Positions 1-32,000 are shown, numbered from the stretch's first letter. The stretch is DNA of 32,000 nt from Candidatus Saccharimonadota bacterium (GCF_029232205.1 NZ_CP107255.1:630001-662000), one strand, 5' to 3'. Made by a program: numbers and translations. The notes: generated by a model from the sequence alone, not told the origin.

Positions 1-155
1 GCCAGGTAAAACATGTCATGCTCTGAATCCACCAGTACATCACATAGCTGGCTGGAGAATCGGTGCTGTTTCTTTCGGTGAGCTATTCCATTTAGTTCTT
101 CCTCATCGAAAAACTGGTTGAAAGAATTCACTAAGGCCCTTTCAAAGTCTGTCAT
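1..155 (-). CDS. Partial ORF (first 51 codons, continues past the left window edge). Hypothetical, possibly the N-terminus of a PD-(D/E)xK / Hjc-like nuclease.
   Basis: My translation of the reverse strand from ATG at 155..153 gives MTDFERALVNSFNQFFDEEELNGIAHRKKQHRFSSQLCDVLVDSEHDMFYLA..., open to the edge. It is below the size cut-off of the ORF track. The E-R ... R ... S ... D-V-L-V spacing resembles archaeal Hjc, but the E-x-K part would lie outside the window. Confidence 0.3.
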   Translation of the reverse strand, partial: MTDFERALVNSFNQFFDEEELNGIAHRKKQHRFSSQLCDVLVDSEHDMFYL

Positions 156-220
156 AAGGAAATATGGGGGATGGTTGAATAAAAATCATTCTCAATTTTG
201 CTGAGATCTCCTTAAAACCC

Positions 221-3169
221 TTATTTGAATGCTAGAGCTTGAACTTCCTCTTTTGGAAGACTGCGATTATAGATCCTTAGCTCATCAGCTTTTCCTTCTA
301 GATTTTCGCCCATAATTAATTTTCCAGAGGAATTAGAGTCCATTCCAACCTGCTTTGAGGATCTTTCTTGGCCTCCGATATACAGTTTTTGAGTTGAGCC
401 ATTGAAGTTTAAAGATACGTGCCGCCATGAGGCCCCAATCTCTGCGGTTGTTATGCTTTTTCCAACAGAACCAACAACTACTTCGTCATCAATACCTAGA
501 TAATAGTCTCCTTCATTTACAGAGGCAACAGTACCTACAGGATAGCGAACTAGAACAATACCAGAACCTCCGTCACCACCGAGGCCTCCACCATCACTTC
601 CTCCGCCGCCACCTCCACCAGTGTTCGACATGCCGTCATATCCATTGTTATGCGTCTTGTCGCCTCCACCTTCACCACCGCCTCCTAATCCGCCTAGGCC
701 TCCATAACCAGAACCATCTCCACCTGTATTTGCTCCTCCGCCACCTCCACCGGCGAAATATCCTTCGTCTCCGTATCTCATACCGAACTCTTCAGAGAAG
801 TTTAGGCCTTTACCACCGTCTCCACCGTCGGTAGGATTAGTTATTACGATAGTCTCGCCCTGCTCTCCTGCTCCGCCTCCTCCAGCACCAAAGTCTCCGT
901 TAGTGGTAGGTACGTCTCCACCATCGCTGCCTGAGCCTCTTGAAGTAATATCTTGCTGGGTTGAGTTTCCTCCTAAACCATTATCGTTGCCTGCTCCACC
1001 GCCAGATCCGCCGCTAAGACCATCTGAACCATCATCAGATCCTCTACCACCGCCTCCGCCTCCGATAGCTTTTACATCTTTAAAGCTCGAGTTTTCGCCG
1101 TTATTGCCGAAAGATGGCGTAGTTGTTCCTCCACTACCTCCATCTCCAACTTTAACGGTGTAGGCGCCTGAATTTAGACTATAATTATTCAGATATACGA
1201 GGCCTCCTGCTCCACCTCCTCCTGAGCCTCCATTATTATTTCCAGTATTTGAGGATCCTCCTCCGCCACCACCTGCAACTATAAGGGCGTCTACGTCTAA
1301 TTCTCCACCAGTGACATTTAGAGAAGATTCTCCTACGTTTGTAAATGCATGAACCTTGTAGAGAATTCCATTATCCTTGACATAATACTTATCTTCGCCT
1401 CCTATCACGTCAATGGAATCTTGATCAGATTTTACCCAGGAAGAAATAGTTACTTTACTATCAACGCTGGTAAGACCGAATTTCTTTATATTGCCGCTAT
1501 CTAAACCCACAGAATAGCTATCTAGAACTCCTCTTCTATTCATGTCTGAAGTATCATAAGCTGTTTTCCTATCACCTTCCTCAAATCTCCATCTGCCAAT
1601 TAGTCTATCATTAACCTGTTTGCCATTGTATAGAGCCCTAACTTCAGAAGTAGAAAGGGCCTTTGAGTATATTCTGGCGTCATCTATCTTACCGTTGAAA
1701 TAACCAGTTGTTCCTTCCTTATCAGCGCCTATTGTAACATCTGCATCAAAAGCTTCAAGGTTTCTATTTGTGGTTTCTGAACCTACTTGATCGCCGTTAA
1801 CATACAACTTCCTGGTTCCTGTCTTCTCTGAATATGTTAATGCGACGTGAACCCATTCATTATCTGGAATACTTGTTGCCGAGCCACAGTCATCCCCTCC
1901 ATCTCCAATGCACCCATATAATCCTCCAGATTTGGTAGCAATGAACCAGAAAAAGTTCCCTTCTCTCTTAGATATAATCTTATCATATGTTCCTGAGATA
2001 GAACTCTGTTTTATCCAGGCCGAAAGTGTCAGCTCTTCCGTCAAATTTAACGAATTAGAACCTGAGAGATCAACATAATCATTATCTCCGTCAAACTTCA
2101 AAGAGTAATCTCCTACTTTGCCTTCTTTCCAACCGCTCGAAGCATTGAAATCGAAATTTTTGAGTTCTCCAGTTTTCCCGCCATAAAATGTTCCAAGATG
2201 CGAATTCTGAGAGTAGTCCTTTATTGCAGGCCTGTTTAGCGGTGTATCCCTGACCCAGCCACTGCCCATTTCCAGCTGATTATTCTCAAATCCTCGAGGA
2301 GTTCCACTATTACCATTTGCAGAATCATCTGTGAGACAGGCATTAGAAGCAGCAATATCACATCTTTTCGGGCCCTCATTGAAGTTTTGATAAAATATAA
2401 GATTTTCGCGTGAAACAGTCTTTTCTTTGTAAAGTTTCTGAACTTCTAGTTCGGTTAAATTAGTTTTATAGACTCTAACGTCATCCACCTTCCCATCAAT
2501 ATTTCCATCAAGGCCTGTTCCTATGGAGGAATTGCTTAAAGAGTTCATCCATGTATCATCGCCATCTGGATCTACAGTATAATCTTTTTGGCCATTAAGA
2601 TATACTGTGTAGTTGTCTCCATTCCAAACATAACCTATGTGGTACCAAGTTCCTGTTGATATACTACTGCCTTCTTCCGAAGTCCTGACACCGTCCGTAG
2701 CAATCTTCACATTTCCACTCGGACTAGCACCTATCTGTTCGTTTTCGCCTTCTTCATCTGTCCATTCGAAAAACGCGGTATACTCATTTTGGAAAGAATC
2801 AAACTTAACCCATCCAAAAACAGATCTGGATTCATTTGCTGGATCAGAAATTTGAGATAGTGGATCTTCTAAAGAGATGTAGTCATCTTGCCCATCAAAA
2901 TCCAGGCTGTAACCTCTAGAAACCTTGGGATCGTCAAATCGCCAGTATCCTTGTAGGCCATCTTGGAGATTTGCTTGGCTGGATTGAACCTCTTTATCTC
3001 CTGTAGTACTTAGTGCTGGGGTCGGACCTGACAGTTCTCCATTATCAAGATATTTTAGTGAATTAGAGGTAGATGAAAGCATAGAAATTGAAGCTACCAT
3101 TAAAACAACAGCAAGAAGAGCCGCACTTTTTTCCGCTGATAAATTTCCTAGAAAATCAAGAGCACTCAC
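221..3169 (-). CDS. Giant surface protein, 982 aa. N-terminal hydrophobic anchor or long signal, three LamG (Laminin_G_3-type) domains, and a glycine-rich domain inserted in the last LamG. GTG start.
   Basis: 982-aa ORF. Hydrophobic segment AALLAVVLMVASISML near the N-terminus. LamG signatures recur: GYWRFDD...FDGQDDYISL...WYHIGYVW...VYLNG...GKVDDVRVYKTNLTELEVQKLY; KFDGDNDYVDL...SAWIK...WVHVALTY...LYVNG...GKIDDARIYSKALSTSEVRALY; and C-terminal ADELRIYNRSLPKEEVQALAFK. Confidence 0.88.
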   Translation of the reverse strand: MSALDFLGNLSAEKSAALLAVVLMVASISMLSSTSNSLKYLDNGELSGPTPALSTTGDKEVQSSQANLQDGLQGYWRFDDPKVSRGYSLDFDGQDDYISLEDPLSQISDPANESRSVFGWVKFDSFQNEYTAFFEWTDEEGENEQIGASPSGNVKIATDGVRTSEEGSSISTGTWYHIGYVWNGDNYTVYLNGQKDYTVDPDGDDTWMNSLSNSSIGTGLDGNIDGKVDDVRVYKTNLTELEVQKLYKEKTVSRENLIFYQNFNEGPKRCDIAASNACLTDDSANGNSGTPRGFENNQLEMGSGWVRDTPLNRPAIKDYSQNSHLGTFYGGKTGELKNFDFNASSGWKEGKVGDYSLKFDGDNDYVDLSGSNSLNLTEELTLSAWIKQSSISGTYDKIISKREGNFFWFIATKSGGLYGCIGDGGDDCGSATSIPDNEWVHVALTYSEKTGTRKLYVNGDQVGSETTNRNLEAFDADVTIGADKEGTTGYFNGKIDDARIYSKALSTSEVRALYNGKQVNDRLIGRWRFEEGDRKTAYDTSDMNRRGVLDSYSVGLDSGNIKKFGLTSVDSKVTISSWVKSDQDSIDVIGGEDKYYVKDNGILYKVHAFTNVGESSLNVTGGELDVDALIVAGGGGGGSSNTGNNNGGSGGGGAGGLVYLNNYSLNSGAYTVKVGDGGSGGTTTPSFGNNGENSSFKDVKAIGGGGGGRGSDDGSDGLSGGSGGGAGNDNGLGGNSTQQDITSRGSGSDGGDVPTTNGDFGAGGGGAGEQGETIVITNPTDGGDGGKGLNFSEEFGMRYGDEGYFAGGGGGGANTGGDGSGYGGLGGLGGGGEGGGDKTHNNGYDGMSNTGGGGGGGSDGGGLGGDGGSGIVLVRYPVGTVASVNEGDYYLGIDDEVVVGSVGKSITTAEIGASWRHVSLNFNGSTQKLYIGGQERSSKQVGMDSNSSGKLIMGENLEGKADELRIYNRSLPKEEVQALAFK
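539..1363 (-). other. Glycine-rich domain (aa ~603-877 of the 982-aa protein) nested inside its C-terminal LamG domain.
   Basis: It starts YKVHAFTNVGESSLNVTGGELDVDALIVAGGGGGGS, has multiple GGGGxG runs, and ends GGDGGSGIVLVRYP. This start/end pattern matches the 'glycine-rich domain-containing protein' family as I remember it. LamG sequence resumes immediately after (GDYYLGIDDEVVVG...WRHVSLNFNGSTQKLYIGG...). Confidence 0.6.
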
Positions 3170-3296
3170 TGCTTTCGTCCCTCTCGTATGACCATTTCCT
3201 TTCCATTAATTTTTACCGGTGTTCTTTGATTCCTTCTTAATGGATATATTTTCTTGGGCATAACACCATGTTATTCTTCTCTATGGCAAAATACTG

Positions 3297-6200
3297 CTAA
3301 CTGAAGCTCAGGCCTTCTACTTCTAATTCGGTCAGGCTTCTGTTGTAGATTCTGAGCTCGTCAATTCCTCCCTGGAATACTGTGATGTTTTCTTCCAGCG
3401 TGCCTCCTAGTATAGGGGGCAAGGTGTCTGCAGCTTTCTGAGATATCAGTTCTTTATGCTGCATTTCGCCGTTTCTGTGTAGTTTGATATTTTGCCCTGC
3501 TTTTCTTGTTGCTGTAAAGTGTGTCCAGCGGGTTAGCGGGGCATCTACATGAGCGGTAACTGTTTTATTAGCTGTACGGTATCTGTAGATAAGTTTTCCA
3601 TCTTCGGTCCATATGTTAAGGCCTTCAGTTTTTTCTGGAGAGGCCTCTGTTTTTGTGTATGGGCCTGCGTATTTTCCTGGTGTTCTCTGTGCGCCCCATA
3701 CAAAGTAGGTGCTGTTGTCTTTTCTATTGAAGAACTGGTATCCTCTGTCTTCCTGAACTGCTTCTAGAGTGCAGGAGTAGTATTGCCAGTAAGTTTTCAG
3801 GTTGAAGAGGCACATGTTTCCGTCGTCGAGGCCGAGTCGGAAGTCATCTCCTCCCGTCCTACTTTTGGCCCATACACTTGCGGTGTAGGTCTTGCCTATT
3901 TCTGTATCTAGATGCTGTATTCTGCCGGTTTTGCTGTCGCATCCAGTACCGTAGCTTACTTTGATGCTTTGCGCAGTGTTTGAACCATCAGGCGCGGTAA
4001 AACCGTTGTTTGTTTCTCCCCATCCACAGTAGCCATTCCAGTAAGAGGATTTGCTGGTGTTTTGAGAGTAGCTTAGAGAGTTATAGCTTGACTGCGATAG
4101 AATTGAGGTAGGCCTTTCTGTTTCAGGTTTTATCCATGCTGATATACTGTAGTTTTTGCTGTAGTCTGCTCCGTAGGTCTGTATTTTGTTGTAGGCCTCT
4201 CCAAAGTTTACTCCTTTACTGTCCAGTATTCCTTCTTTACCTGCTGTTGCTGTATCGTAGACTTTTCCTAGTTCTCCGGAGTCAAAGCTCCATTGAGCTG
4301 TTAGGCCGTCCGTAACTTGTTCGCCGCGGTAAAGTCTCTGCTCTTCGGAGGCCGATAGCGTTTTGGAGTAGAATCTGACATCGTCTATTTTTCCTGTGAA
4401 GTTTGTGTTTACTCCTCCATATGTGTCAGTTATCGCTCCAATATGCGGTTCCCCATAGTTTGGTTTTTCGCACATTACACCTCCGCCGTTATACGCTACC
4501 TCTGTGGCCTTCTTCTCCCCGTTCACATACACGGTGTCAGGCATTGATGTGTTGTAGGCTCCTGTTACACTGACCTGATACCATTCTCCTGGTGTGAAAG
4601 AGTGGTCAACGGTAACCCGTAGATCATTATCGCAGCTGGCCTCTCTTCCCCAGGTAATGTTGCTTTGAGTGCCTTCTATGTAGAAGTACTTTGAGGAAGA
4701 AGACATATCGTAGAGAGTGCTCTCCCAATCAGATTTTTCAGGCTTGAACCAGAGCGATATCGAAAAATTATCTTTATCTATAAGGTCGGGGACCGCCACA
4801 TAATCGTTGGCTCCGTCAAAATCGTAGCTGTTTCCGTATTTTCCTTCACTAGGTATAGGGCCTTCTGTTATATCATCAATTTGAACCCAGTGTCCTACCG
4901 TGTCATCATTGTAGAAGTAAATGTTTGTGTCGGCCTCTGTTTTATCTATCGTAGTAGTGTATGTTTTCCACTCGCTATGGAATTCATGTTGGCTCGTGCC
5001 AGGCCCTGACGAAATACTTGTAGATCCATTGTATACAATCAGTTTGCAGCCATATCCTCTGCAGGCATACTGTATTTCTGTTCCCTGTACAGCGTCATAA
5101 TCGAAGTCTGACATTTTAGCGCATGCCAGGCCGTCTCCACCGGTAGAGTTCATCAGGTAGGAATAGTCGCTTTTGTAGCCTTCTTCAACAATTCTCGAAC
5201 TTGGTTCTCCTCCGCAGTTCGTCTGCCATCCATCACTATTGTTGTCTTCCCAGCCTTCAAAGAATCCTCCGCTGATCAGGCCTTCTCTGTTGTTGAAGAT
5301 CAAGCTTTGTTCATATCCCTTGACGTGATTTTCGAACTTCAACCTTTCGACAGGTCCCTTTGAATTCCAGCCACTGCCCGTGTTGAAGCTATTATCATCA
5401 AAATTACGAGGCGTCCCAGCGTTACCTCTGCCGGAGTCGTCAGTTATACAGGAGTTATTTGACGTCAGATCACAGCTCTGTGGGCCTTTGAAGAGGTAGC
5501 TAAGAACTAAATTTTCTCTTGGTGCGGGCTTGTCTGAGAATAGGGTCTTGGCTTCTTTCTGTGTTATTGACCTGTTATAGATCTTTATGTTCTGTATTTG
5601 GCCCTGGAAGTTTTTGCTATTGCCTTCATTCACCTGTGCACCTATGCCGAATTCATAGCTGTATCCAGAGTTTAGATTTCCCTGTTCAACCAGTTTGCCG
5701 TCGACAAAGAGTTTTCCATTATCTGTTCTAAGTACTGCGATTATATGATGCCACTCAGTAGGATTTGATAGAGTATGGTTCAACGGCGGCGGATTTGTAT
5801 CGCCGTAGTCATTCCTGCTGAAAGCTCTGACTTCTCCATCGACATACTTTATCCCTGATCCCCATCCGTTCCAGTGATTGGTTCCTTTATCCATCCTTCC
5901 TGCAATAGCTGATTCTTGAATCTCTTGAGTTGGTTTTATCCAAACTGAAATAGTCACAGGATTATTGCAGTTATTTCTGCAGTCATCTGAAGGATATTCT
6001 TCTACATTGGCCTCTATGTAATCATCTGTTCCATCAAATTCTATACTATTGCCTGAGGAAATATCAAGAGTGTCAAAGCGATAATAAGCCTCTAGTCCCT
6101 CCTTTAGTGCAGAACTACTAGCGGTTTGAGATAACGGATTTGAAGATGCGGAAAGTCCGGATCTGTTTTCATCAGATAGTGAGGCGGAAAAACTATTTTG

Positions 6201-6302
6201 CTTCTGTAAGGTGTCGAAACCTGCTGAGAATGCTACTATGAGCGTTACCGCTGCGATGAGAATCCTGGCATCATACGGAGTAATAATATTCAAAGAATGC
6301 AT
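3297..6302 (-). CDS. Giant surface protein, 1001 aa. N-terminal hydrophobic anchor, three LamG domains, a Cys-containing ~140-aa module, and a second Cys-containing beta-sandwich-like insert in the last LamG.
   Basis: 1001-aa ORF with ATG start. ILIAAVTLIVAFSAGF hydrophobic segment. LamG C-terminal motifs GQIQNIKIYNRSITQKEAKTLF, GKIDDVRFYSKTLSASEEQRLY, GGIDELRIYNRSLTELEVEGLSFS. FDGTDDYIEA and FDGANDYVAV strands. Confidence 0.88.
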   Translation of the reverse strand: MHSLNIITPYDARILIAAVTLIVAFSAGFDTLQKQNSFSASLSDENRSGLSASSNPLSQTASSSALKEGLEAYYRFDTLDISSGNSIEFDGTDDYIEANVEEYPSDDCRNNCNNPVTISVWIKPTQEIQESAIAGRMDKGTNHWNGWGSGIKYVDGEVRAFSRNDYGDTNPPPLNHTLSNPTEWHHIIAVLRTDNGKLFVDGKLVEQGNLNSGYSYEFGIGAQVNEGNSKNFQGQIQNIKIYNRSITQKEAKTLFSDKPAPRENLVLSYLFKGPQSCDLTSNNSCITDDSGRGNAGTPRNFDDNSFNTGSGWNSKGPVERLKFENHVKGYEQSLIFNNREGLISGGFFEGWEDNNSDGWQTNCGGEPSSRIVEEGYKSDYSYLMNSTGGDGLACAKMSDFDYDAVQGTEIQYACRGYGCKLIVYNGSTSISSGPGTSQHEFHSEWKTYTTTIDKTEADTNIYFYNDDTVGHWVQIDDITEGPIPSEGKYGNSYDFDGANDYVAVPDLIDKDNFSISLWFKPEKSDWESTLYDMSSSSKYFYIEGTQSNITWGREASCDNDLRVTVDHSFTPGEWYQVSVTGAYNTSMPDTVYVNGEKKATEVAYNGGGVMCEKPNYGEPHIGAITDTYGGVNTNFTGKIDDVRFYSKTLSASEEQRLYRGEQVTDGLTAQWSFDSGELGKVYDTATAGKEGILDSKGVNFGEAYNKIQTYGADYSKNYSISAWIKPETERPTSILSQSSYNSLSYSQNTSKSSYWNGYCGWGETNNGFTAPDGSNTAQSIKVSYGTGCDSKTGRIQHLDTEIGKTYTASVWAKSRTGGDDFRLGLDDGNMCLFNLKTYWQYYSCTLEAVQEDRGYQFFNRKDNSTYFVWGAQRTPGKYAGPYTKTEASPEKTEGLNIWTEDGKLIYRYRTANKTVTAHVDAPLTRWTHFTATRKAGQNIKLHRNGEMQHKELISQKAADTLPPILGGTLEENITVFQGGIDELRIYNRSLTELEVEGLSFS
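3624..4049 (-). other. Inserted module (aa ~752-893) splitting the C-terminal LamG of the 1001-aa protein. Candidate carbohydrate-binding-module-like beta-sandwich.
   Basis: SYWNGYCGWGETNNGFTAPDGS...GKTYTASVWAKSRTGGDDFRLGLDDGNMCLF...YYSCTLEAV...FVWGAQ. It is flanked by the LamG N-half (AQWSFDSGELGKVYDTATAGKEGIL...SISAWIKPE) and C-half (WTHFTATRKAGQNIKLHRNG...IDELRIYNRSL). The pattern 'G.TY..SVWAK' resembles CBM4/9-type modules. Boundaries are approximate. Confidence 0.45.
4854..5270 (-). other. Conserved Cys-containing ~138-aa module, copy A (aa ~345-483 of the 1001-aa protein).
   Basis: FFEGWEDNNSDGWQTNCGGEP...NSTGGDGLACAKM...IQYACRGYGCKLIVYNGSTSISSGPGT...NIYFYNDDTVGHW...ITEGPI. By hand alignment 89 of 138 positions are identical to copy B at 8013..8426. 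Confidence 0.7.
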
Positions 6303-6328
6303 AACAGGTTACCTTGGGATTTTGTTGC

Positions 6329-6340
6329 TAGGAATTTAAT
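6329..6340 (-). promoter_or_regulatory. Candidate TATA-box promoter element of the 1001-aa LamG gene.
   Basis: The minus strand reads ATTAAATTCCTA, ending 26 nt upstream of the ATG at 6302. The identical 12-mer lies upstream of the LamG gene at 19704. Confidence 0.4.
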
Positions 6341-6395
6341 ATTATCTTAAAGCCCACAGTGCAACTAATTTGCTTTTATCAGAGCATATCAATCC

Positions 6396-9300
6396 CTATT
6401 GGAATGCCAATTTTTCTATTTCATTTTGATTCAAACTTCGATTGTAGATTCTGACTTCGTCAAGCTTGTTTGCATAGTTTCTTCCCAGTGTTGTGGGCCC
6501 TCTGGCTTTTTTGCTGCTTGAGATATTGTAGTCTTCTTCTATAAGCTGGGTTCCTGAGTAAAGTTTTGCTGTGTTGCCGTCAAAGGTTAACGTGATGAGT
6601 TTCCAGTTCTTGTCAAGTTCGGGGCTTTCCAGGAATCTGCCGTTGACATGGGCCAGGATTTTTCTTTCATGCAGTGTCAGGCCATACCTGTTGTTTTCTG
6701 AAATAGCGGTGTAGGTTTTCATTGATAGGTCGTCCATCCAGAGGCCTGCGTTTCCTCCGGAAGGGCCGTTGTATCCGTTGTTTCCGTCTCCGCCATCTAT
6801 CTGGTATCTTATTGTTCTTGTTCCTTTCGGTGGTTTGTAGGAAGGTGTTATGTGGAACCAGTCGCCGTATTTTTCCACATATTCTTCATTGAGGTTGTAG
6901 GCCTCTCCCATCCACCGAGTTTTGTTTTCTCCCAGAAGTGTTCCATTTTCGCTGTAGTAGTAGAAATGTAGTCGGACATCATCTTCATAGACGTACGGAG
7001 TGGCTTTGAGACCTTCCCAGTTGGCATCGGAGTATGATGGAAGGTTTATCCATGCTGAGGCCTTGAATGCGGAGTTATCCTCTACGCTGACGTTCTGGTA
7101 GATGTATGCGTTTGGCCATGTTCCTGGGCCTTCGTTCCATGGGTTTCCGAATGATTTTGAGCCTTCGGTGTTCGGTGCCAGTCTGTCATCTGTGACGTTC
7201 CAGCCGTTTTCGTCCGGATAATTCCAGTTTTCAGGGTTTGTCTCGTCGTAAGGATCTTCCTCGAATCCCGGATTTTTCAGCATGTTTTCAGAGTTATCTC
7301 CTTCAATCCAGCCTGTGACTGTGAATTCCGGGCCTTTTAGTGTTGTTCGGGAAGTTAGATGCGAGTTCTCGCCTCCCAGTGCTTTTCCTCCAAGTATCCC
7401 TTTGTGGCCTGTAGAGGCGGAGTCAAAGGCCTTTTTGCCGTCTGTGTCTTCAAAATTCCATTTTCCTGCGAGTTCTCCGCTGACGGGTTCTCCACTGTAT
7501 ATTTTCTGTATTTCTTTGTCACTGAGTGCTCTTGTGTAGATTCTTATGTCGTCGACTGAGCCTTGCAGCCATTTTTCGCTGTCTGTTGAAGGCCTTCCGA
7601 TTATTGCCTGTTCCGATCTTATTCTTCCGGAGACATCGTCTCTTGTGGAGGAGGCCTGTTTTTCTCCGTCAAGGTAGAGGCTGAATGTTTTTCCTTCTCT
7701 CTTTATTGCCGCGTGGTACCACTGATTTTCGTTTATGTTTGTTGTCAGGATTGTTGAGTCATTGCTTCCCTGCTCAGGGTACAGGTATCCTTTGAGTTCG
7801 TTGTTGTTTCCTGCGTAGATGGCCCATTCGTAGTCGTCGCGGTTTGCTCTGATAAGAGATGAGCCCAGGTTTCCAGTAGATCGGGAAAGATTCTCGTAGT
7901 TCACCCAGCCAGTTACCGTGAAGTTTTCGACTCCAGTGATGTTTCTGTCTATTTCTATGTAGTCATCGTAGCCATCGAGGCGAAGGCCTTTTCCTCTCGG
8001 TGTTCTGTTCTGTATCGGACCTTCTGTGATCATGTCGTAGATTGCCCAGTGGCCCACTTGATCGTCGTTGTACATGTAGATGTTGGCGTCGGACTGGGTT
8101 TTTTCCACGCGAGTGGTGTAGATTTTCCATTCATCGGAGTATTCGTGGTAGTCGGTTCCCGGGCCTGATGAGATATCTGTGGATCCGTTCCAGACGATTA
8201 GTTTGCAGCCGTACCCTTTACATGCGTACTGTATTGTTTCTCCTTCTACTGCTGAGTATGTATAGTCTGTCAGTCTTGTGCATGCGAGGCCGTCTCCTCC
8301 TGTCGAGTTGAGTAGGTATGCGTAGTCGCTGATGAATGTGTCTTCCACCATTTTGTTCTCCGGTTGTCCTCCGCAGCCAAGCTGCCATCCTTCCGAGTTA
8401 TTTTCCTCCCAGTTCTCCAGAAAGTTTCCGCTCATCTCTCCGTTTTCCATGCCCTGAGTATGCATCTGGAATTCGTTGTCCGAGCTGTCCCGAAGAGAAA
8501 GATTGTTCAGCGGCGAGTCCGTGGACCAACCTGACTGAGTTCCTACGGTGTTGTTGATGTTGTAGCCCGTTGCCGGCCAGTTATATAGAGAATCTCCTTT
8601 CAGGCATTTTTGAGTAGAGGAAAGACCACAGTTTTCCGGGCCTTCGTTGAATCTCTGGTAGAACATCAGATTGTCGCTTTCTACGGGAAGGCCTTTCTTG
8701 ACCTCTCTGATCTGATCTCCGGTGAGAGATTTGTTGTACAGTTTTACCTCATCTATTTTACCGTTGTAGAAGTGGTCTGCGTCATATCTGTATCTGCCGA
8801 ACTGTGTCTTGGTACTATGTGAAAAGTTTCCTACGTTCCTGCCGTTTTTCTCCGGTAGCGTTACCTCACTGTCCAGCTGGCCGTTTATGTAGATCCTGCT
8901 TTTGTCGCCAGGCCCGAAGCTTGTGCAGAAGTGGTACCATTTGTTGAGGTTATCTGAAACCCATTCATTGGCTCCTGAATCGTAATAGCCCAGGCTTTTG
9001 TCAGCAGTGTGGCCATCATTTTCGATTGATGGATCTACCTGGTACCAGTAGGTTGTAGATATGTTTCCTGATGTCGTGAGGCTTATGCTGAAAGTGTGGT
9101 CTCTTTTCTCTATCAGTCTTTGATCTGCTCCCCCAGTTGAGGACAGGGCCTCTGGCTTTATCCATGCGCAGTAAGTGGCCTGACTGAAGTTTGTGACTTT
9201 GCTTGGATATCCGTCGTCATCTACCTCTACGTAGTCATCTGTCCCGTCAAGTCTCAAGCTGTACTGTTCAGTTTTTCCAGAGGATTCAAATCTGTAGTAA

Positions 9301-9545: not shown

Positions 9546-9596
9546 TCCTAGCTGTGTATTGGCGATGCAGACTTATGAAATCTGAGAAGAGTGTTG

Positions 9597-10391
9597 TTAA
9601 AACGAGTTAAGGCCTTTCTGATCCGGGTTTTTCAGTACTTTTCCTGATGTCATTGCGAGAGCGAGTCTCCCGTTGCCGATGATCTGTCCTTTGACTGAAT
9701 GTATTTCTCCCTGGAAAAGGCCTTTGCGGGAGAACTCTCCCTGTAGTCTGTCGTATAAGGTTAGAGAGTTTACATCGACTATTTCAGCGTCGTAGTCATG
9801 TTCCTCCATTATTTTCTGAAGTTTCCGTGGATCCGAAGGATTGTTTGTCTTCTGTTCTTTCCTTATTCTCTCTGTTATGCCTCGTGAGGAGATGTCCTGT
9901 TCGTTTTCCAGTGCTACTTTTGATGAGAGGCCTGAAAGTATTTCCGCGCCGTAATCCGCTCCCTGTTCAACCCATCTCTTCGGTATTTTCTCCGATCTTG
10001 TGACTCCAACTTTTACTTCTTGCCCGATCTGTGCCAGGTATACTGAGAATTCTCCGTCGAGATCTGTCTGTGTATCTCCTCTGACGTAGTCCGAGTAAAT
10101 GTCTTTTCCACGGCATTCGCTGCACTGAGAACCGGAGTCAATTTCTCTGAACTCCGGGCATGGCGCTCTTTCGCCAGGGCTTGGAGCAAATCCTGTGCAT
10201 CTTCTCTCATTAGTTACTTCGAAAGAAACTTTTCTGCCTGGCTGTAGACCTCTTTTTTCGAAGCCATTCGGGCCTGCTAACAGTAGTTTTGCTTTCCATC
10301 CGTCAGAGGAATTCTTCCACTGTACTTTGACTATCGAATTCACTGAGTTCGTCCTCCAAGTGTTTTCTGTGTGCTGCTCCGACAAATGCAA
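9597..10391 (-). CDS. Zinc-ribbon-containing hypothetical protein, DUF2797-like. Start codon uncertain.
   Basis: 264-aa ORF. Cys cluster CTGF...CPEFREIDSGSQCSECRG, followed by VYLAQIGQEVKVGVTRSEKIPKRWVEQGADYGAEI. I recall this pattern (KVG-TR...RW..QGA) as DUF2797, from memory only. The track start is TTG at 10391 and overlaps the TraB gene by 89 nt. In-frame alternatives are TTG at 10385 and GTG at 10343. Confidence 0.6.
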   Translation of the reverse strand: MHLSEQHTENTWRTNSVNSIVKVQWKNSSDGWKAKLLLAGPNGFEKRGLQPGRKVSFEVTNERRCTGFAPSPGERAPCPEFREIDSGSQCSECRGKDIYSDYVRGDTQTDLDGEFSVYLAQIGQEVKVGVTRSEKIPKRWVEQGADYGAEILSGLSSKVALENEQDISSRGITERIRKEQKTNNPSDPRKLQKIMEEHDYDAEIVDVNSLTLYDRLQGEFSRKGLFQGEIHSVKGQIIGNGRLALAMTSGKVLKNPDQKGLNSF

Positions 10392-19663: not shown

Positions 19664-19670
19664 GAGAAAG

Positions 19671-25358: not shown

Positions 25359-25577
25359 GCAACCTTTTGGTGACAACAATTAAGTATTGTTCTTTTCATG
25401 GCATCATTTTTAACGATTAATCAGGTTAGAGAAGTCATGAGCAGCAGAGGTGGACGTTTTTGTCACTGCAGAAATAGGATTTCTGCCTCGAAAAACAGCT
25501 CTCTCAAGTCTGTTTCGACAGGCCTTTAATTCTGAACTTCTAAAACCAGTTATAGCGCTGCTCGGAGCTGAAACTCT

Positions 25578-27038
25578 ATGACACTGAAATTATTCAATAC
25601 ACTGACACGGGAGAAAGAAGAATTCAAACCACTGGAAGAAGGAAAAGTTACTTTTTACAGCTGCGGGCAGACAATCTACGACGACCTCCACATCGGAAAC
25701 GCAAAGGCCTACACCGCATGGGACACACTAACTCGCTACCTGCGGTGGAAAGGATACACAGTACGACACGTACAGAATATTACTGATGTAGGCCACTTGA
25801 CCGATGACGGCGACCAGGGAGAGGATAAAGTCGAGAAACGAGCCAAAGAACTAGGCCTCGAACCCATGGAACTTGTCGAAGACCAGATCGAACGCTACTT
25901 TGAGGACACGAAGGCCTTGAATGTCAAGCGGCAGGATATTGTTCCACGTGCGACAGGACATATTAACGAGATGATTACATACATTCAGCACATTATCAAC
26001 AATGGTTATGCGTATGAGGTTGACGGAAATATCTACTTTGATGTTGAGGCCTTTGCAGAGGATTACCCTTACGGTGAAATGGCGAAGAAGGATATTGAAC
26101 AGTTGAAGGAAGAGGCCCGGAGTCGTGTAGAGCCTGATGAGAACAAGAAAAACCAGTTTGACTTTGCTCTCTGGCTTAACGCCGAGGGAACCGATCATGC
26201 GATGAAGTGGCATGCACACTTTACTATTGAGGGCGAAGAAGTCTACTCAACTGGTTATCCTGGATGGCATCTGGAGTGCTCTATCATGAGCCAGAAATAC
26301 TTGGGAGACGAATTCGATATTCACGCTGGTGGAAAAGACCATATATTCCCTCACCACCCAAACGAGCGTGCGCAGGCCTTTGCAGCGACAGGAAAAGGTC
26401 AGGCCCGTTACTGGATCCACAACGAGTTCATTAATATCGAGGGAGAGAAGATGAGTAAGTCAGAAGGTAACTTCTATACTGTTAGAGAGCTGCTGGAGAA
26501 AGGTTTCAGCGGTGACGCGATCAGGCTTTATCTGATAAGTACTCATTACCGTTCGGAGACTGATTTCTCACTTGAAGGCCTGGAGAAGGCTGAGAAAGAA
26601 CTTAAGAGAGTGAGGAGGACTGTGGAAAAGGTTGGCTACATGGAGGAACCTGAAGGAAAACACAGCTTCGGTGAGCCTGGAGAGTACGAAGGCCTTATCG
26701 GTGATTTCGAGGAAGCGATGGACGATGACCTGAATACGGCAAAGGCCAAACAGGTTTTGATGAAAGCAGTTAACGAGGCGAACTCCATGCTTGAAGACGG
26801 CGATCAACCTGCTGTAGATTACAGCAACGCACTCATTGAGATGTTTGATGTTCTTGGAGTAGATGTAAGGCCCCAGGCCTCTGATTCTGAGTCCGGCATG
26901 GCTGATCTGTTGATGGAGCTTCGTGACGAGGCCCGTGAACAGGAGGACTGGGATACTTCAGATATGATTCGTGATCGATTGGAAGAGCTAGGTTTCGAAG
27001 TTGAGGACACTGATGAAGGCAGTAGATGGCTGAAATAA
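25578..27038 (+). CDS. cysS: Cysteinyl-tRNA synthetase.
   Basis: 486-aa ORF. N-terminus LFNTLTREKEEF, HIGH-type motif DDLHIGNAKAY, KMSKS motif GEKMSKSEGN, and the CysRS-typical WHLECS. Confidence 0.93.
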   Translation: MTLKLFNTLTREKEEFKPLEEGKVTFYSCGQTIYDDLHIGNAKAYTAWDTLTRYLRWKGYTVRHVQNITDVGHLTDDGDQGEDKVEKRAKELGLEPMELVEDQIERYFEDTKALNVKRQDIVPRATGHINEMITYIQHIINNGYAYEVDGNIYFDVEAFAEDYPYGEMAKKDIEQLKEEARSRVEPDENKKNQFDFALWLNAEGTDHAMKWHAHFTIEGEEVYSTGYPGWHLECSIMSQKYLGDEFDIHAGGKDHIFPHHPNERAQAFAATGKGQARYWIHNEFINIEGEKMSKSEGNFYTVRELLEKGFSGDAIRLYLISTHYRSETDFSLEGLEKAEKELKRVRRTVEKVGYMEEPEGKHSFGEPGEYEGLIGDFEEAMDDDLNTAKAKQVLMKAVNEANSMLEDGDQPAVDYSNALIEMFDVLGVDVRPQASDSESGMADLLMELRDEAREQEDWDTSDMIRDRLEELGFEVEDTDEGSRWLK

Positions 27039-27080
27039 GGCCTTTACTCCTTTTCTCTATTTTTAGAAAAAATTGAAGAA

Positions 27081-27440: not shown

Positions 27441-27607
27441 ACAATTTATTTAGAGAATAACAATTATATTTGGCTCGATACAGGAAGTAAAGCTCTAATT
27501 AAGCGCGAAAGAATTTAAGAAGTAGATTGAGGCTACCTGTATAAGAAAAATCTTGGATGAGAAAAACTAAGGGAGAAAGGCCTTTTGAAGAAGTTATGGC
27601 CTCTAGT

Positions 27608-28904: not shown

Positions 28905-31900
28905 TTACTGTACAGGCCTTGAAAAGCTGTAACTGACTTTTCTGTCTTCGAATTCAACGCTGCCTGAGAATTCCAGTTCTCTACCTTCGAAGTCGATTGA
29001 TTCGACGTTTACTCTGTCTCTGACAGTTTCCACGTTTTCCTCAACCGGTTCAATGTCTCCTCCAAATGAGACATCTACCTTGTCCTCGACTTCAAGTTCG
29101 GCCTCTTTACGGGCTTGTTGTAGTTCTCTGAGAACTTCAGCTACCAGGGCCTCATCCTTGAGCTCTTCTGTCATTTCGTCGTCGATATAGACTGTTCCTT
29201 CGGAAAATTCTTCGCCCTCCATTCCTTCTGGAACAAAGCTTCTGACCTCGAACATGTCAGAGCTCAGCTCGTGGCCTTCGACTTCTATCGATTCGCCGTC
29301 TTCGATTTTATCAGCAAGCTCGTTGTGATCCATATCAGCCAGAGAAGATTCTACTGATTTGACATCTCCACCGAGTTCAGGCCCGGCTTTTGCATAGTCA
29401 AGCTTGACTTCATAGTCAAGTTCGACCTTTTCAAAGGCCACATCCTTGGTATTCAGTCGTTCCTCGAGAAGTTCTTCAAGGCTTTCTACGGCCTCCTTGA
29501 CTTCTGCGTTGCCTGATACAGTTACTTTCTGGACAGGGTGTCGAAGCTTGATTCCTTTCTCCTGTCTTAATCTTGCGACAGCTTCCTCTATGTCCTGAAA
29601 AATGCTCATTTCTCGTTCCAGTGCTTCGTCAATGAACTCTTCCTGTACTTCTGGGTAATCCAGCATGTGGATTGAGTCTTCATCGTCGTAAAGGTACTCT
29701 GTAAGGTATGGCAGGAATGGTGAAAGAACTTGTAGAAGCTCGTCGCATACCTTGCGCAGAGTCCATTCAGCAGCCTTCCTGTCATCTCCTTCGTATCCTG
29801 GACGTAGCCTGTCACGAACCATCTTGATGTATCCACGGGAAAGATCTTCCTTCGTGAATCTTTCTACTTCCTGAGCGGCCTTGAAGGCCTGGTAGTTAGG
29901 CTCGGTAGAGTACTCTCTTACATCTCTGACAAGAGTGTTCAGCCGCGATAGAATCCATTCATCCTCAGTGTTGAGGTTGTCAGGCCTTTCTCTATCCTCT
30001 GTGTACGTGTCTTTGTAGTTGTATGTGTTCCAGAGGATGTTCATGAACTCCTGGTTCTCATCCATCTTGTCCCATGTAAAGTTGAGATCATCTGAAGGAT
30101 CTCCGGACAGGATAAAGAATCTAAGTACGTCACGGCCGTATTTCTCTATGGCCTCTCCTGGAGAGACTACAATACCTTTGGATTTCGACATTTCTTTGCC
30201 GTCAAGCATTACTTTGCCGTGGTAGATGACGTTGTTGAACGGTTTCTGATCGTATGTCATGTGTGAGGTGATGAACTGACTGTTCCACCATCCACGGATC
30301 TGATCGAATCCTTCAAGCTCCAAGTCCACAGGATTGTGGTCCTCGAACGAGAAATCGATCGCTGGGTGTTTGAGCGAGGCCCATGGAGCGACTCCTGAAT
30401 CGAACCATACATCCAGTACGTCAGGAATTCTCTCCATTGTGCCACCACATTCCTCACAGTCAAGCTCTACATTGTCAATGTAAGGCCTGTGTAGGTCGTC
30501 AGGCACTTCCGGTAGCTCGGATCTATCTCCGATAACCTTGGTGTGATCGCAGTCGTTACATTCCCAGATAGGTAGTGGGATTCCCCAGTAACGCTGTCTA
30601 GATACAGGCCAGTCTCCAAGCTGTTCAAGCCATTCATGGAATTTCTGTCCGGCCCAGTCAGGAACCCAGTTTACCTCTTCATTGCTTTCAATCAGTTCGT
30701 CTCTGAACTTTGTAGCTCCGAAGAACCACTGAGGGATCGAAAGCTGTAGAAGCGGAGTATCACATCTCCAGCACTTTGGATACTCGTGCCGGATCTCTCC
30801 CGAGTAAAGCAATGCTTCTCCAAGATCCTCCTTGATCTCTGGGTCGGCATCCTTCACGTATAGGCCTTCGTATGGGCCTGCTTCTTCTGTGAACTCTCCT
30901 TTCAGATTGACTGGAGAGATCTGTTTAATATCATTTTCCTGGCCTACCTCGTAGTCCTCTTTACCGTGTCCTGGTGCTGAGTGTACGAGGCCTGTTCCTC
31001 CTTCAAGGTCGACGTAGCGATCAGAAAGAACTACTTTACCCTGTACGCCTTCCTGTGCCGGAACTTTGTCTTCCAGAGGATGACCATATTCAAGGCCTTC
31101 AAGTTCTTCTCCCGTTACCTCTTTCAGTACTTCATGGTCTTCTACCCCGAACTTGCTCATTATTGTATCTACAAGTTCTGAGGCCATCCAGATCTTTCTC
31201 TCGTTGAATTCTACTAGCGAGTACTGGTAGCTTGGGCCTACCATGATTGCTGCGTTTGCTGGCAGTGTCCATGGAGTGGTGGTCCAAATCAGTAACTCTT
31301 CGTCGGAGTCCTTGACTGGCATTGCCACGTAGACTTCCGGGTCGTTTAGTTTAGTATATTCGATTTCGTTGTATGCTACTGCTGTCTCGCAGCGTGTGCA
31401 GATGTGTACAGGGTACTGATCCTTGTACAGGAAGTCTTTTTCGAAGGCCTTTTGGAATGTCTGCCACGCACCCTCAATGTAGTAGTCGTGGTAGGTTACG
31501 TACGGGTTTTCCCAGTCCATCCAGACTCCCATATCTTCGAAGTCGTGATTCATCTGTTCGATGTGCTGGTCGACGAATTTCTGACATTCCTTGATGAAGT
31601 TCTCCACTCCAAAGTCTTCAATATCTTTTTTCGAGTTGAATCCTTTCTCTTCCTCCACCTTATTTTCGATAGGGAGGCCGTGAGTATCGTAACCCGGCTG
31701 GCTGTGTACATTGTAGCCAAGCTTCCTGTGGAATCGCAGGTAGAAATCCTTCAGAATCTTGTTAAGGCCTGTACCCATGTGAATGTTTCCTGATGCGTAT
31801 GGAGGCCCGTCTAGAAAGTAGAATCGGTCGTTTCCCTTGTTTCTGTTCAGTACTTTTTGCCTTGTATCATTATTGTTCCATTGCTGGAGAACTGTTTCTT

Positions 31901-31928
31901 CAATTTTTTCTGGATTGTAGTCGGTCAT
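28905..31928 (-). CDS. ileS: Isoleucyl-tRNA synthetase.
   Basis: 1007-aa ORF. FYFLDGPPYASGNIHMGTGLNK (HIGH-type motif), KMSKSKG, WPVSRQRYWGIPLPIW, and Zn-binding CWRC / C..C pairs, typical of archaeal IleRS. Confidence 0.93.
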   Translation of the reverse strand: MTDYNPEKIEETVLQQWNNNDTRQKVLNRNKGNDRFYFLDGPPYASGNIHMGTGLNKILKDFYLRFHRKLGYNVHSQPGYDTHGLPIENKVEEEKGFNSKKDIEDFGVENFIKECQKFVDQHIEQMNHDFEDMGVWMDWENPYVTYHDYYIEGAWQTFQKAFEKDFLYKDQYPVHICTRCETAVAYNEIEYTKLNDPEVYVAMPVKDSDEELLIWTTTPWTLPANAAIMVGPSYQYSLVEFNERKIWMASELVDTIMSKFGVEDHEVLKEVTGEELEGLEYGHPLEDKVPAQEGVQGKVVLSDRYVDLEGGTGLVHSAPGHGKEDYEVGQENDIKQISPVNLKGEFTEEAGPYEGLYVKDADPEIKEDLGEALLYSGEIRHEYPKCWRCDTPLLQLSIPQWFFGATKFRDELIESNEEVNWVPDWAGQKFHEWLEQLGDWPVSRQRYWGIPLPIWECNDCDHTKVIGDRSELPEVPDDLHRPYIDNVELDCEECGGTMERIPDVLDVWFDSGVAPWASLKHPAIDFSFEDHNPVDLELEGFDQIRGWWNSQFITSHMTYDQKPFNNVIYHGKVMLDGKEMSKSKGIVVSPGEAIEKYGRDVLRFFILSGDPSDDLNFTWDKMDENQEFMNILWNTYNYKDTYTEDRERPDNLNTEDEWILSRLNTLVRDVREYSTEPNYQAFKAAQEVERFTKEDLSRGYIKMVRDRLRPGYEGDDRKAAEWTLRKVCDELLQVLSPFLPYLTEYLYDDEDSIHMLDYPEVQEEFIDEALEREMSIFQDIEEAVARLRQEKGIKLRHPVQKVTVSGNAEVKEAVESLEELLEERLNTKDVAFEKVELDYEVKLDYAKAGPELGGDVKSVESSLADMDHNELADKIEDGESIEVEGHELSSDMFEVRSFVPEGMEGEEFSEGTVYIDDEMTEELKDEALVAEVLRELQQARKEAELEVEDKVDVSFGGDIEPVEENVETVRDRVNVESIDFEGRELEFSGSVEFEDRKVSYSFSRPVQ

Positions 31929-32000
31929 ACACCGATTTCGGACTTGGAATGTTAAAAGTATTTTGAGGAGGCTGTTTTTACCAGCTAGAATAACAGTGGA

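What the first reader, a model, noticed from the sequence alone, without database searches (positions are those of the whole stretch)
1..32000. The palindrome AGGCCT (half-sites AGGCC/GGCCT) is about ten-fold over-represented in genes, on both strands and in spacers
Scanning every line by eye I counted about 81 AGGCCT and about 240 GGCC; I may have missed a few. An independent-base model at 40-47% GC predicts only about 5-7 AGGCCT and about 50-100 GGCC in 32 kb. About 80% of the GGCC sites carry a 5' A and/or a 3' T, so the enriched unit is AGGCC/GGCCT rather than GGCC alone. It is not a single peptide motif, because all three codon phases occur. Examples are AAG-GCC-TAC (K-A-Y, 25705..25710) and CTA-GGC-CTC (L-G-L, 25853..25858) in cysS, and AGG-CCT (R-P, 13603..13608) in a LamG gene. 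Sites also occur on both coding strands and in non-coding DNA (16602..16607, 25520..25525, and 27038..27043 abutting the cysS stop). Palindromic hexamers that are restriction targets (StuI-type AGGCCT, HaeIII-type GGCC) are normally depleted, so strong enrichment is the opposite of the usual signature. Possible explanations include a DNA-level selected word (protein-binding, architectural, uptake-like or methylation motif) or an unusual mutation or codon-pair bias.
Basis: seen in the sequence. Interest (0 to 1): 0.72.

Follow-up and report, generated by a model that had tools for sequence, protein, structure and literature searches.

The report
Hyper-abundant AGGCCT palindrome in Nanohalovita
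The six-letter palindrome AGGCCT occurs about thirteen times more often than chance in this tiny salt-loving symbiotic archaeon and its closest relatives only. It fills about 60% of the places where the proteins allow it and is conserved between species, so it behaves like the poorly understood "highly iterated palindromes" of cyanobacteria, which I could not find reported for archaea in the paper library I searched.

Summary
It survives every null that could explain it trivially. The base-composition expectation is 6.2, the dinucleotide shuffle gives 7.7, the synonymous-codon shuffle 14.1±3.5, and the codon-plus-dinucleotide shuffle 26.4±4.1. It occurs in all three codon phases, on both coding strands and in non-coding DNA. 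60% of all protein-permitted positions carry it, against 3-17% for other palindromic hexamers.

The window comes from Candidatus Nanohalovita haloferacivicina (Nanohaloarchaeota, DPANN). The excess is confined to that genus: four independent assemblies show 9-13×. The sister genus Nanohalobium avoids GGCC, and about 75 other DPANN loci sit near expectation.

Between two Nanohalovita species, 88% of permitted sites are kept, against 33% for other palindromic hexamers. All six positions are protected. One sub-lineage is losing sites.

The best reading is an archaeal analogue of cyanobacterial HIP elements. It is a DNA word held in place by selection or an equivalent drive. That force probably depends on a lineage-specific trans-acting factor, most plausibly an orphan DNA methyltransferase. 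That link is a literature lead, not a test. The function remains unknown.

The parts
1..32000 (.). Field of 81 AGGCCT sites (242 GGCC). The mean gap is 390 bp and the largest is 1464 bp. Every gene longer than about 450 bp carries at least one.
   Evidence: Counts per 2 kb range from 3 to 7 (variance/mean 0.43). No sequence information extends beyond one base either side of GGCC.
28905..31928 (-). ileS (isoleucyl-tRNA synthetase). 9 of the 13 positions where the protein permits AGGCCT carry it.
   Evidence: Pfam, occupancy, site-by-site comparison across 8 taxa.
25578..27038 (+). cysS (cysteinyl-tRNA synthetase). 8 of 9 permitted positions are used, and a further site (27038-27043) abuts the stop codon.
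221..13647 (.). Four LamG-domain surface-protein genes of about 860-1050 aa (221-3169, 3297-6302, 6396-9545 on the minus strand; 11053-13647 on the plus strand), with DUF2797 and TraB genes between them. All carry the motif. Two LamG genes have lower GGCC occupancy (0.22 and 0.26).
19704..22889 (+). Fifth LamG gene, absent from the syntenic region of strain M3_22, yet with full motif density (8 of 10 permitted positions).
13666..13939 (-). SRP RNA gene containing two AGGCCT sites (13716, 13775) and two further GGCC.
16602..16607 (.). Intergenic AGGCCT site.
25520..25525 (.). Intergenic AGGCCT site 58 bp upstream of cysS.
27578..27583 (.). Intergenic AGGCCT site.

Best explanation
AGGCCT is a genus-specific 'highly iterated palindrome'. 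It is a word written into the DNA itself, not into the proteins or the codon usage.

In the ancestor of Candidatus Nanohalovita it spread, mainly through synonymous changes, into most positions where the encoded proteins tolerate it. Since then individual sites have been held in place by purifying selection, or by a drive that acts like selection, on all six bases.

The force depends on a trans-acting factor that lineages can gain and lose. I infer that this factor is a protein that recognises AGGCCT as two AGG/CCT half-sites. The most plausible candidate is an orphan DNA methyltransferase. The sites would then form a dense, fairly even genome-wide mark, about one per 390 bp, used for a chromosome-wide task such as strand or self discrimination in repair, or nucleoid organisation.

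What is shown: the enrichment, its independence from coding, its limits to one clade, and the site conservation. What is inferred: the trans-acting factor, its identity as a methyltransferase, and the function.
For: (1) The excess survives codon-preserving and dinucleotide-preserving nulls (z = 17 and z = 12).

(2) Codon choice depends on context. Ala is GCC in 84% of motif-permitting contexts against 27% elsewhere. Gly is GGC in 66% of cases before Leu against 27% elsewhere. Pro is CCT in 70% of cases after Arg against 42% elsewhere.

(3) 75 of 124 protein-permitted positions (60%) are occupied, similarly in all three phases. Thirteen other palindromic hexamers show 3-17%.

(4) Non-coding DNA carries 6 sites in 2.9 kb.

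(5) Clade limits. The window is at 13×, M3_22 (L001) at 13×, and metagenome contigs L081 and L082 at 11.6× and 9×. Nanohalobium constans has 0 AGGCCT (4.2 expected) and GGCC at 0.30×. Other nanohaloarchaea and DPANN loci of 10 kb or more lie between 0 and 2.7×. L001's 10 kb that is not represented in the window is equally enriched (29 against 2.2).

(6) Conservation between the window and M3_22, where codon identity given the same amino acid is only 59%. At positions permitted in both genomes, 21 are shared, 3 and 1 are unique, and 11 are empty in both. Retention is 88%, against 33% for all other palindromic hexamers. Synonymous positions inside the motif are unchanged in 57 of 63 cases, against 59% elsewhere (p = 7e-8), and all six motif positions are protected. 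The same codons outside the motif are kept only 56% of the time, against 81% inside (p = 1.6e-4). The full hexamer is conserved better than one-flank sites, which are conserved better than no-flank sites (96%, 84%, 75%).

(7) One sub-lineage (L082) loses sites at about the neutral rate while its sister L081 keeps them. This is what loss of a trans-acting factor would produce.

(8) Literature lead. The REBASE survey lists exactly one restriction-modification gene for strain M3_22, an orphan type II methyltransferase predicted to make m4C (PMC10609329). In cyanobacteria, hyper-abundant palindromes co-occur with cognate methyltransferases (PMC4390886) and are conserved by selection (PMC5861425).
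Against: - No methyltransferase or AGGCCT-binding protein was seen. None is encoded in the window or in the 39 kb of related loci held from this genus.
- The specificity of the M3_22 enzyme is unknown.
- The paper describing this genome reports only a type III Mod/Res pair and four generic SAM methyltransferases, and it did no methylome for this strain (PMC10266531).
- Only about 71 kb of the genus could be examined, so 'genome-wide' is an extrapolation.
- The hexamer count equals the product of its half-sites, so there is no sign of cooperativity between the two halves.
- The even spacing is only weakly supported (p = 0.02-0.1 in the window, not significant in M3_22).
- Selection and a strong site-restoring repair bias cannot be separated with these data.
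Confidence: 0.5

Rival explanations
1. The sites are a by-product of biased DNA repair and have no function of their own. One version is a methylation-linked very-short-patch or mismatch-repair 'ratchet', as Elhai proposed for cyanobacterial HIPs and as Dcm/Vsr does to E. coli k-mers. It converts near-miss sequences into AGGCCT and restores damaged sites.
For: - The motif arose quickly in one lineage while the sister genus avoids GGCC.
- The half-site structure is multiplicative.
- GGCT/AGCC are the most under-represented tetramers against a Markov model (z = -7.5 and -6.0).
- In the decaying lineage L082 the commonest replacements are inner-C transitions: AGACCT/AGGTCT and GACC/GGTC, 6 of 13 single changes.
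- Elhai's model is described in PMC4390886.
Against: - Compared with non-enriched relatives, one-off neighbours are lowered broadly (0.5-0.9×). Transversion and transition neighbours are lowered alike (AGGAC 0.61, AGGTC 0.62, AGACC 0.63, AGCCC 0.52). This is not the T-specific pattern that T:G repair predicts.
- The Markov 'depletion' of GGCT is partly bookkeeping caused by the GGCC excess.
- All six positions are protected, including the A and T flanks, not just one cytosine.
- Permitted but empty positions stay empty in both species, with only 8-12% filled. There is therefore little sign of continuing creation.
- Xu et al. used the same conservation argument to favour selection for HIP1.
Confidence: 0.25
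2. AGGCCT is an uptake or transfer recognition signal, like the USS/DUS of Pasteurellaceae and Neisseria. It would have enriched through preferential import or exchange of DNA carrying it.
For: - Both strands are used equally, the sites are dispersed, and the enrichment is specific to one clade.
- Recent preprints link HIP1 to transformation and type IV secretion.
- The genome paper describes giant surface proteins with VirB4/TraG-like ATPase domains.
Against: - As I recall, known uptake sequences are 9-12 bp and asymmetric.
- Six bases with no information in the flanks give little discrimination.
- No competence machinery was examined.
- Position-specific conservation is not required by a drive based on uptake.
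Confidence: 0.07
3. The excess is an RNA-level effect. Because the word is its own complement, it appears as AGGCCU in every transcript whichever strand is transcribed. It could be selected for RNA-RNA pairing or as the target of an RNA-binding factor or nuclease.
For: - A palindrome cannot tell DNA-level from RNA-level selection by strand.
- Most of the window is transcribed sequence.
- Two sites lie in the SRP RNA.
Against: - Sites also lie in intergenic DNA at similar density.
- I know of no precedent for such an RNA-level effect.
- The closest precedents are DNA-level. Xu et al. found no support for an RNA role for HIP1.
Confidence: 0.05
4. The excess is an artefact of amino-acid composition, codon usage, dinucleotide bias, or a repeated element or paralogous LamG genes that inflate the count.
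For: - GC, GGC and GCC are themselves somewhat over-represented.
- The window holds five paralogous LamG genes.
Against: - Codon-preserving and dinucleotide-preserving shuffles leave z = 12-17.
- All three phases are used.
- Single-copy ileS and cysS have the highest occupancy, 9/13 and 8/9.
- The flanks of the sites are unrelated to one another.
- Four independent assemblies show the excess.
Confidence: 0.02

Closest known systems
HIP1 (GCGATCGC), the Highly Iterated Palindrome of cyanobacteria
   Same: It is a GC-rich palindrome over-represented more than tenfold. It is found in all reading frames and between genes, and it is conserved between related genomes beyond the synonymous background. 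The abundance differs between lineages. The function is unknown. (PMC5861425; PMC4390886.) The tests here mirror theirs, with the same outcomes.
   Different: HIP1 is an octamer from a bacterial phylum and is phylum-wide. This word is a hexamer, in a DPANN archaeon, in one genus. The density is higher (2.5 per kb against roughly 1 per kb). The HIP1 link to the CGATCG and GATC methyltransferases is documented, whereas no cognate enzyme is identified here. The 10-90 kb periodicity reported for HIP1 cannot be assessed in 32 kb.
Alternate HIPs (GGCGCC, GCCGGC and GCSGC in single cyanobacterial strains; CAGGCCTG in Synechococcus sp. PCC 6312)
   Same: These are sporadic, lineage-restricted replacements of one palindrome by another, each tied (Elhai) to a methyltransferase of matching specificity. 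CAGGCCTG contains the same AGGCCT core.
   Different: Here the outer C/G of CAGGCCTG are not part of the word: CAGGCCTG occurs only 4 times, and position -2 carries 0.05 bit. The organism is an archaeon.
GGCC as the target of an orphan m4C methyltransferase (M.Ssp6803II, GG(m4C)C) in Synechocystis
   Same: It is a very frequent GGCC-based mark (one per 185 bp there, one per 132 bp here) made by an orphan enzyme. Its effects are on DNA topology, replication and repair rather than on gene regulation (PMC6560206).
   Different: Methylation has not been shown here. Here the excess requires the A/T flanks.
Dcm/Vsr very-short-patch repair shaping k-mer abundance in E. coli (my own knowledge: Bhagwat and McClelland 1992; Merkl et al. 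1992)
   Same: It is a methylation-linked repair process that raises the frequency of the methylase site and of related words.
   Different: It predicts depletion specifically of T-for-C neighbours, which is not seen here. The effects in E. coli are far smaller than 13×.
Restriction-site avoidance
   Same: It concerns the same class of short palindromes. The sister genus Nanohalobium shows it for GGCC. Nanohalococcus has only 140 GDGCHC sites in its whole genome (PMC10266531).
   Different: The sign is opposite.

Membership tests
Highly iterated palindromes (HIP-type elements) | A short GC-rich palindrome many-fold over-represented against composition and Markov or shuffle nulls | tested here: met
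   13× against composition, 10× against the dinucleotide shuffle, z = 12-17 against codon-preserving nulls. It is the most frequent hexamer.
Highly iterated palindromes (HIP-type elements) | Dispersed as single copies inside genes in all frames and between genes, not part of a longer repeat | tested here: met
   Phases 16/26/33; 6 sites outside CDS; no information beyond ±1 of GGCC.
Highly iterated palindromes (HIP-type elements) | Sites conserved between related genomes more than control words or synonymous background | tested here: met
   88% against 33% retention; 57/63 against 59% at synonymous positions; 81% against 56% for the same codons outside the motif.
Highly iterated palindromes (HIP-type elements) | A DNA methyltransferase of matching specificity is present in genomes with the palindrome and absent from those without | not testable with these tools
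   This is only a lead. REBASE lists one orphan type II m4C methyltransferase in M3_22 with unknown specificity. None lies in the DNA held. The BNXNv genome is not in the gene index.
Highly iterated palindromes (HIP-type elements) | Periodic or even distribution along the chromosome | tested here: inconclusive
   Variance/mean is 0.21-0.69 in the window (p = 0.02-0.1) but is not significant in L001. 32 kb is far too short to detect periods of 10-90 kb.
HIP1 proper | The sequence GCGATCGC, in cyanobacteria | tested here: not met
   The word is different (AGGCCT) and the organism is a nanohaloarchaeon.
Very-short-patch (T:G) repair footprint | Depletion confined to T-for-C (A-for-G) neighbours of the methylated site | tested here: not met
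   Transition and transversion neighbours are lowered alike, 0.5-0.9×.
Very-short-patch (T:G) repair footprint | A C5 methyltransferase plus a Vsr-type endonuclease or T:G glycosylase is encoded | not testable with these tools
The paper lists no Dcm-like enzyme for this strain.
DNA uptake sequences (USS/DUS) | An asymmetric word of 9-12 bp with an extended flanking consensus | tested here: not met
   The word is a 6-bp palindrome and the flanks carry 0.05 bit or less.
Restriction-site avoidance | The palindrome is under-represented | tested here: not met
   The sign is opposite here. Avoidance is met in the sister genus (L083: GGCC 16 against 53, AGGCCT 0 against 4.2).

The most novel reading that the evidence does not exclude
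This may be the first highly iterated palindrome reported in Archaea. The sites would be a selected, probably methylated, genome-wide mark that arose within a single genus of an obligate symbiont with a 1-Mb genome.

Three features would make it a natural experiment on how such palindromes arise and what they are for. The sister genus avoids the same core. One sub-lineage is now losing the sites. The organism can be grown in co-culture. In cyanobacteria the origin and purpose of these palindromes have stayed unresolved for thirty years.
Probability: 0.4. Interest if true: 0.75.

Novelty: new variant of a known kind. Interest (0 to 1): 0.68.

Why it matters
Hyper-abundant palindromes are a long-standing puzzle, and HIP1 has been known since the 1990s without an agreed function. 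This case is small and sharply bounded. The genome is about 1 Mb and the organism can be cultivated in binary culture. The onset falls between 79% and 87% IleRS identity. A sister genus shows the opposite bias, and one lineage appears to be decaying.

Comparing gene content across that boundary should point to the responsible factor. A single methylome run would test the methylation link.

The motif is also a practical signature. AGGCCT density identifies Nanohalovita DNA in hypersaline metagenomes. StuI-type or HaeIII-type enzymes would cut this genome roughly every 0.4 or 0.13 kb unless it is modified.

Tried and rejected
- Codon, amino-acid and dinucleotide bias. Rejected by two codon-preserving shuffles and by the occupancy analysis.
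- A repeat family or inflation by paralogues. Rejected because the flanks carry no information and the single-copy synthetase genes are the richest in sites.
- A very-short-patch repair footprint. I looked for T-specific depletion of neighbours against five non-enriched relatives and found none. The Markov 'depletion' of GGCT/AGCC is largely a consequence of the GGCC excess.
- Looking for a cognate methyltransferase. Pfam scans of all sizeable window ORFs and motif scans of the window, L001, L081 and L082 and of L001-L084 found none in the Nanohalovita DNA held.
- The supplements of the genome paper. They list genes only for the other strain.
- Extending the window through the gene index. This failed because the genome is not on record.
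- Two of the three protein searches, a LamG paralogue search and an FtsZ search. Neither returned other Nanohalovita loci.
- An origin-of-replication cluster of sites near cdc6. Not seen.
- A scan of viral contigs for clustered AGGCCT. It returned mostly chance clusters and tandem repeats. A few contigs have dispersed excess, but none is linked to this organism.

Full report
**1. The observation**

Exact counting gives 81 AGGCCT, 242 GGCC, 139 AGGCC and 139 GGCCT in the 32,000-base window (45.1% G+C). AGGCCT is the single most frequent hexamer. Base composition predicts 6.2 AGGCCT and 83 GGCC. One hundred dinucleotide-preserving shuffles give 7.74±2.69, with a maximum of 16.

**2. Is it explained by coding?**

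I took 21 ORFs as genes. I dropped ORF 13678-14007, which is really the SRP RNA gene on the other strand.
- Shuffling synonymous codons within each gene keeps the protein sequence and per-gene codon usage. It gives 14.1±3.5 AGGCCT against 75 observed in coding DNA (z = 17).
- A stricter shuffle that also keeps every dinucleotide gives 26.4±4.1 (z = 12).
- CCGG, used as a control word, is unaffected by either shuffle.
- Both nulls are conservative, because the codon usage they preserve is itself inflated by the motif.
- The three codon phases hold 16, 26 and 33 sites.

Codon choice depends on context:

| Amino acid and context | Motif-forming codon | In that context | Elsewhere |
|---|---|---|---|
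| Ala, after K/E/Q and before a T-initial codon | GCC | 84% | 27% |
| Gly, before Leu | GGC | 66% | 27% |
| Pro, after Arg | CCT | 70% | 42% |

The clearest summary is occupancy. There are 124 positions where some synonymous spelling of the protein would give AGGCCT, and 75 of them (60%) have it. The three phases show 70%, 57% and 60%. Thirteen other palindromic hexamers occupy 3-17% of their permitted positions. Non-coding DNA (2.9 kb) holds six sites, two of them in the SRP RNA.

**3. What the unit is**

Nothing beyond one base either side of GGCC carries information; position -2 has 0.05 bit. At flanks that are free to vary:
- The fourfold-degenerate third position before GGCC is A in 77% of cases, against 35% in controls.
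- The third base of the Pro codon after xGG is T in 71% of cases, against 41% in controls.

The hexamer count equals the product of its half-sites: the maximal-order Markov expectation is 79.8 against 81 observed.

| GGCC flanks | Observed | Base-composition expectation | Ratio |
|---|---|---|---|
| Neither flank | 45 | 43.7 | 1.0× |
| One flank | 116 | 33 | 3.5× |
| Both flanks | 81 | 6.2 | 13× |

 The two AGG/CCT halves therefore contribute independently. Even so, the full hexamer is the best-conserved form (section 5).

The sites are spread through all genes. Their distribution is Poisson to slightly more even than Poisson. The variance/mean ratio is 0.2-0.7, with p = 0.02-0.1 in the window and no significance in the relative.

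**4. Whose DNA, and how far the bias extends**

The window's IleRS is 100% identical to that of Candidatus Nanohalovita haloferacivicina, on a 1.047-Mb contig. This is a nanohaloarchaeon (DPANN) grown in binary culture with Haloferax (PMC10266531).

I fetched the IleRS neighbourhood from 80 species-representative genomes and four further assemblies.

| Locus | IleRS identity to window | AGGCCT | GGCC |
|---|---|---|---|
| Window | 100% | 13× | 2.9× |
| L001, strain M3_22 | 92% | 13× | 2.6× |
| L081, metagenome contig | 88% | 11.6× | 2.15× |
| L082, metagenome contig | 87% | 9× | 1.87× |
| L083, Nanohalobium constans | 79% | 0 found, 4.2 expected | 0.30× |

- The genome paper places M3_22 in the same genus.
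- L083 shows classical avoidance.
- L084, L002, L050 and all other nanohaloarchaeal and DPANN loci of 10 kb or more lie between 0 and 2.7×.
- The 10 kb of M3_22 that has no counterpart in the window is just as enriched (29 against 2.2).
- The bias is therefore a derived trait of one genus, seen in four independent assemblies.

**5. Site history**

The window and M3_22 are 83% identical in DNA. Where the amino acid is the same, the codon is the same only 59% of the time.
- At positions where both proteins permit AGGCCT, 21 carry it in both genomes, 3 only in the window, 1 only in M3_22, and 11 in neither.
- Retention is 88%. All other palindromic hexamers pooled show 33% (33 of 100).
- Synonymously variable positions inside the motif are unchanged in 57 of 63 cases, against 59% elsewhere (p = 7e-8). 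Each of the six positions is protected: 12/14, 10/11, 5/5, 10/11, 12/13 and 8/9.
- The same codons outside the motif are kept 56% of the time, against 81% inside (p = 1.6e-4). This rules out the idea that motif codons are simply preferred codons.
- The GGCC core is kept at 96% of full hexamers, 84% of one-flank sites and 75% of sites with no flank.
- Empty permitted positions stay empty: only 8-12% are filled in the other species.

The picture is an old installation followed by maintenance, not continual random re-creation.

One lineage differs. L081 and L082 are sisters (90% DNA identity). L081 keeps all eight AGGCCT sites that the window has at positions permitted in both genomes. L082 has lost five of the AGGCCT sites that L081, the window and M3_22 all share. 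GGCC sites present in the other three taxa but missing in one number 8 for L082, against 1-2 for each of the others. The L082 replacements are mostly AGACCT/AGGTCT and GACC/GGTC. The numbers are small. They fit relaxation of whatever maintains the sites, that is, a factor a lineage can lose.

**6. Mechanism**

What is shown is a DNA-level word under a selection-like force on all six bases, specific to one genus. I tested the most concrete repair model, T:G very-short-patch repair coupled to cytosine methylation. I compared k-mer frequencies between the enriched clade (71 kb) and five non-enriched relatives of similar G+C (110 kb).
- All NGGCC pentamers rise: AGGCC 6.4×, GGGCC 6.3×, TGGCC 2.7×, CGGCC 2.4×.
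- One-off neighbours fall broadly and to similar degrees whether they are transitions or transversions: AGGTC 0.62, AGACC 0.63, AGGAC 0.61, AGCCC 0.52, AGGCT 0.81.
- The T-specific footprint is therefore absent. Protection of the A and T flanks is also not what deamination repair predicts.

A methyl-directed mismatch-repair ratchet of the kind Elhai proposed (PMC4390886) is not excluded as the origin of the sites. The conservation pattern is the one that Xu, Lawrence and Durand took as evidence for selection on HIP1 (PMC5861425).

**7. The candidate factor**

No DNA methyltransferase is encoded in the window or in the other Nanohalovita loci held. The genome paper reports a type III Mod/Res pair and four generic SAM methyltransferases for this strain, with no methylome.

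The REBASE-based survey of archaeal restriction-modification systems includes 'Nanohaloarchaea archaeon M3_22'. It lists exactly one such gene for it, an orphan type II methyltransferase predicted to make m4C. M3_22 has no type III system, so the type III pair of BNXNv cannot be the shared cause (PMC10609329). The specificity of the orphan enzyme is unknown. This is a lead, not a test.

I could not reach the rest of either genome.

**8. Comparison with what is known**

The closest known things are the highly iterated palindromes of cyanobacteria. These are HIP1 and the sporadic alternates (GGCGCC, GCCGGC, GCSGC). Notably, CAGGCCTG in Synechococcus PCC 6312 shares the AGGCCT core.

The present case meets the three defining features I could test: over-representation, independence from coding, and conservation between species. 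The fourth feature, a matching methyltransferase, could not be tested. It is not HIP1 itself.

Full-text searches found no paper that links AGGCCT or highly iterated palindromes to nanohaloarchaea or to archaea in general. The genome paper's text does not contain 'GGCC'. I therefore rate it a new variant of a known kind. It is real, strong and apparently unreported, with its function unknown and its mechanism only partly constrained.

Noticed in passing
L083 (Nanohalobium constans CP040089.1, 334993-358013): The sister genus avoids the same core. GGCC occurs 16 times against 53 expected, and AGGCCT 0 times against 4.2. The REBASE survey lists an m5C type II methyltransferase for this genome. 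L007 also has GGCC at 0.37×.
   Followed up: partly
L082 (ENA ERZ1034573 NODE_1828) compared with L081: One Nanohalovita-clade lineage is losing sites while its 90%-identical sister keeps them. AGGCCT is found only in L081 at 7 sites and only in L082 at 2. The replacements are mostly inner-C transitions (AGACCT, AGGTCT, GACC, GGTC). This hints that the inner cytosine is the labile, possibly modified, base.
   Followed up: partly
window 13666-13939 (minus strand): An archaeal SRP RNA gene (Rfam RF01857, 126.8 bits). The 109-aa ORF at 13678-14007 on the plus strand that overlaps it is spurious.
   Followed up: yes
window 9597-10947 (minus strand): A DUF2797 gene overlaps a TraB/PrgY-family gene. 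The annotation of the related strain SVXNc calls DUF2797 a GIY-YIG-type nuclease. In SVXNc the same pair sits next to a 'Vsr-like endonuclease'. Here a LamG gene occupies that position.
   Followed up: no
window 221-13647 and 19704-22889: Five paralogous LamG/concanavalin-like proteins of 864-1061 aa lie in 32 kb. The gene at 19704-22889 is absent from the syntenic region of M3_22, and its only close database match is itself.
   Followed up: partly
window 16656-16668 and 16753-16765: An exact 13-nt direct repeat (CCGGGTTGGCAGA). The second copy is the 5' end of tRNA-Cys (16752-16822). It may be a remnant of integration at the tRNA.
   Followed up: no
window 18481-19654 and 22904-23760: A cluster of four NUDIX-hydrolase paralogues. 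Relatives (L084) have a similar run of NUDIX genes next to cysS.
   Followed up: no
window, whole: GCGC and CGCG are at about one third of expectation (27 and 29 against 83), and CTAG and TTAA at about half. CCGG is at expectation.
   Followed up: no
L171 (IMGVR_UViG_3300031867_007516); L086 and L164 (IMGVR_UViG_3300029432_000018 and 3300045988_144701): A few unrelated viral contigs show dispersed AGGCCT excess in varied contexts. L171 has 22 sites in 10.8 kb at 52.5% G+C (2.9 expected). L086 has 13 sites in 3.6 kb at 36% G+C. Similar palindrome enrichment may exist in other hosts. These contigs were found by a search that required three clustered sites, so the sample is biased.
   Followed up: partly
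literature (PMC10266531): Nanohalococcus occultus SVXNc has only 140 GDGCHC motifs in 948 kb, nearly all m4C-methylated. My estimate of the chance expectation is well over a thousand. If so, three neighbouring nanohaloarchaeal genera treat GC-core palindromes in three different ways.
   Followed up: no
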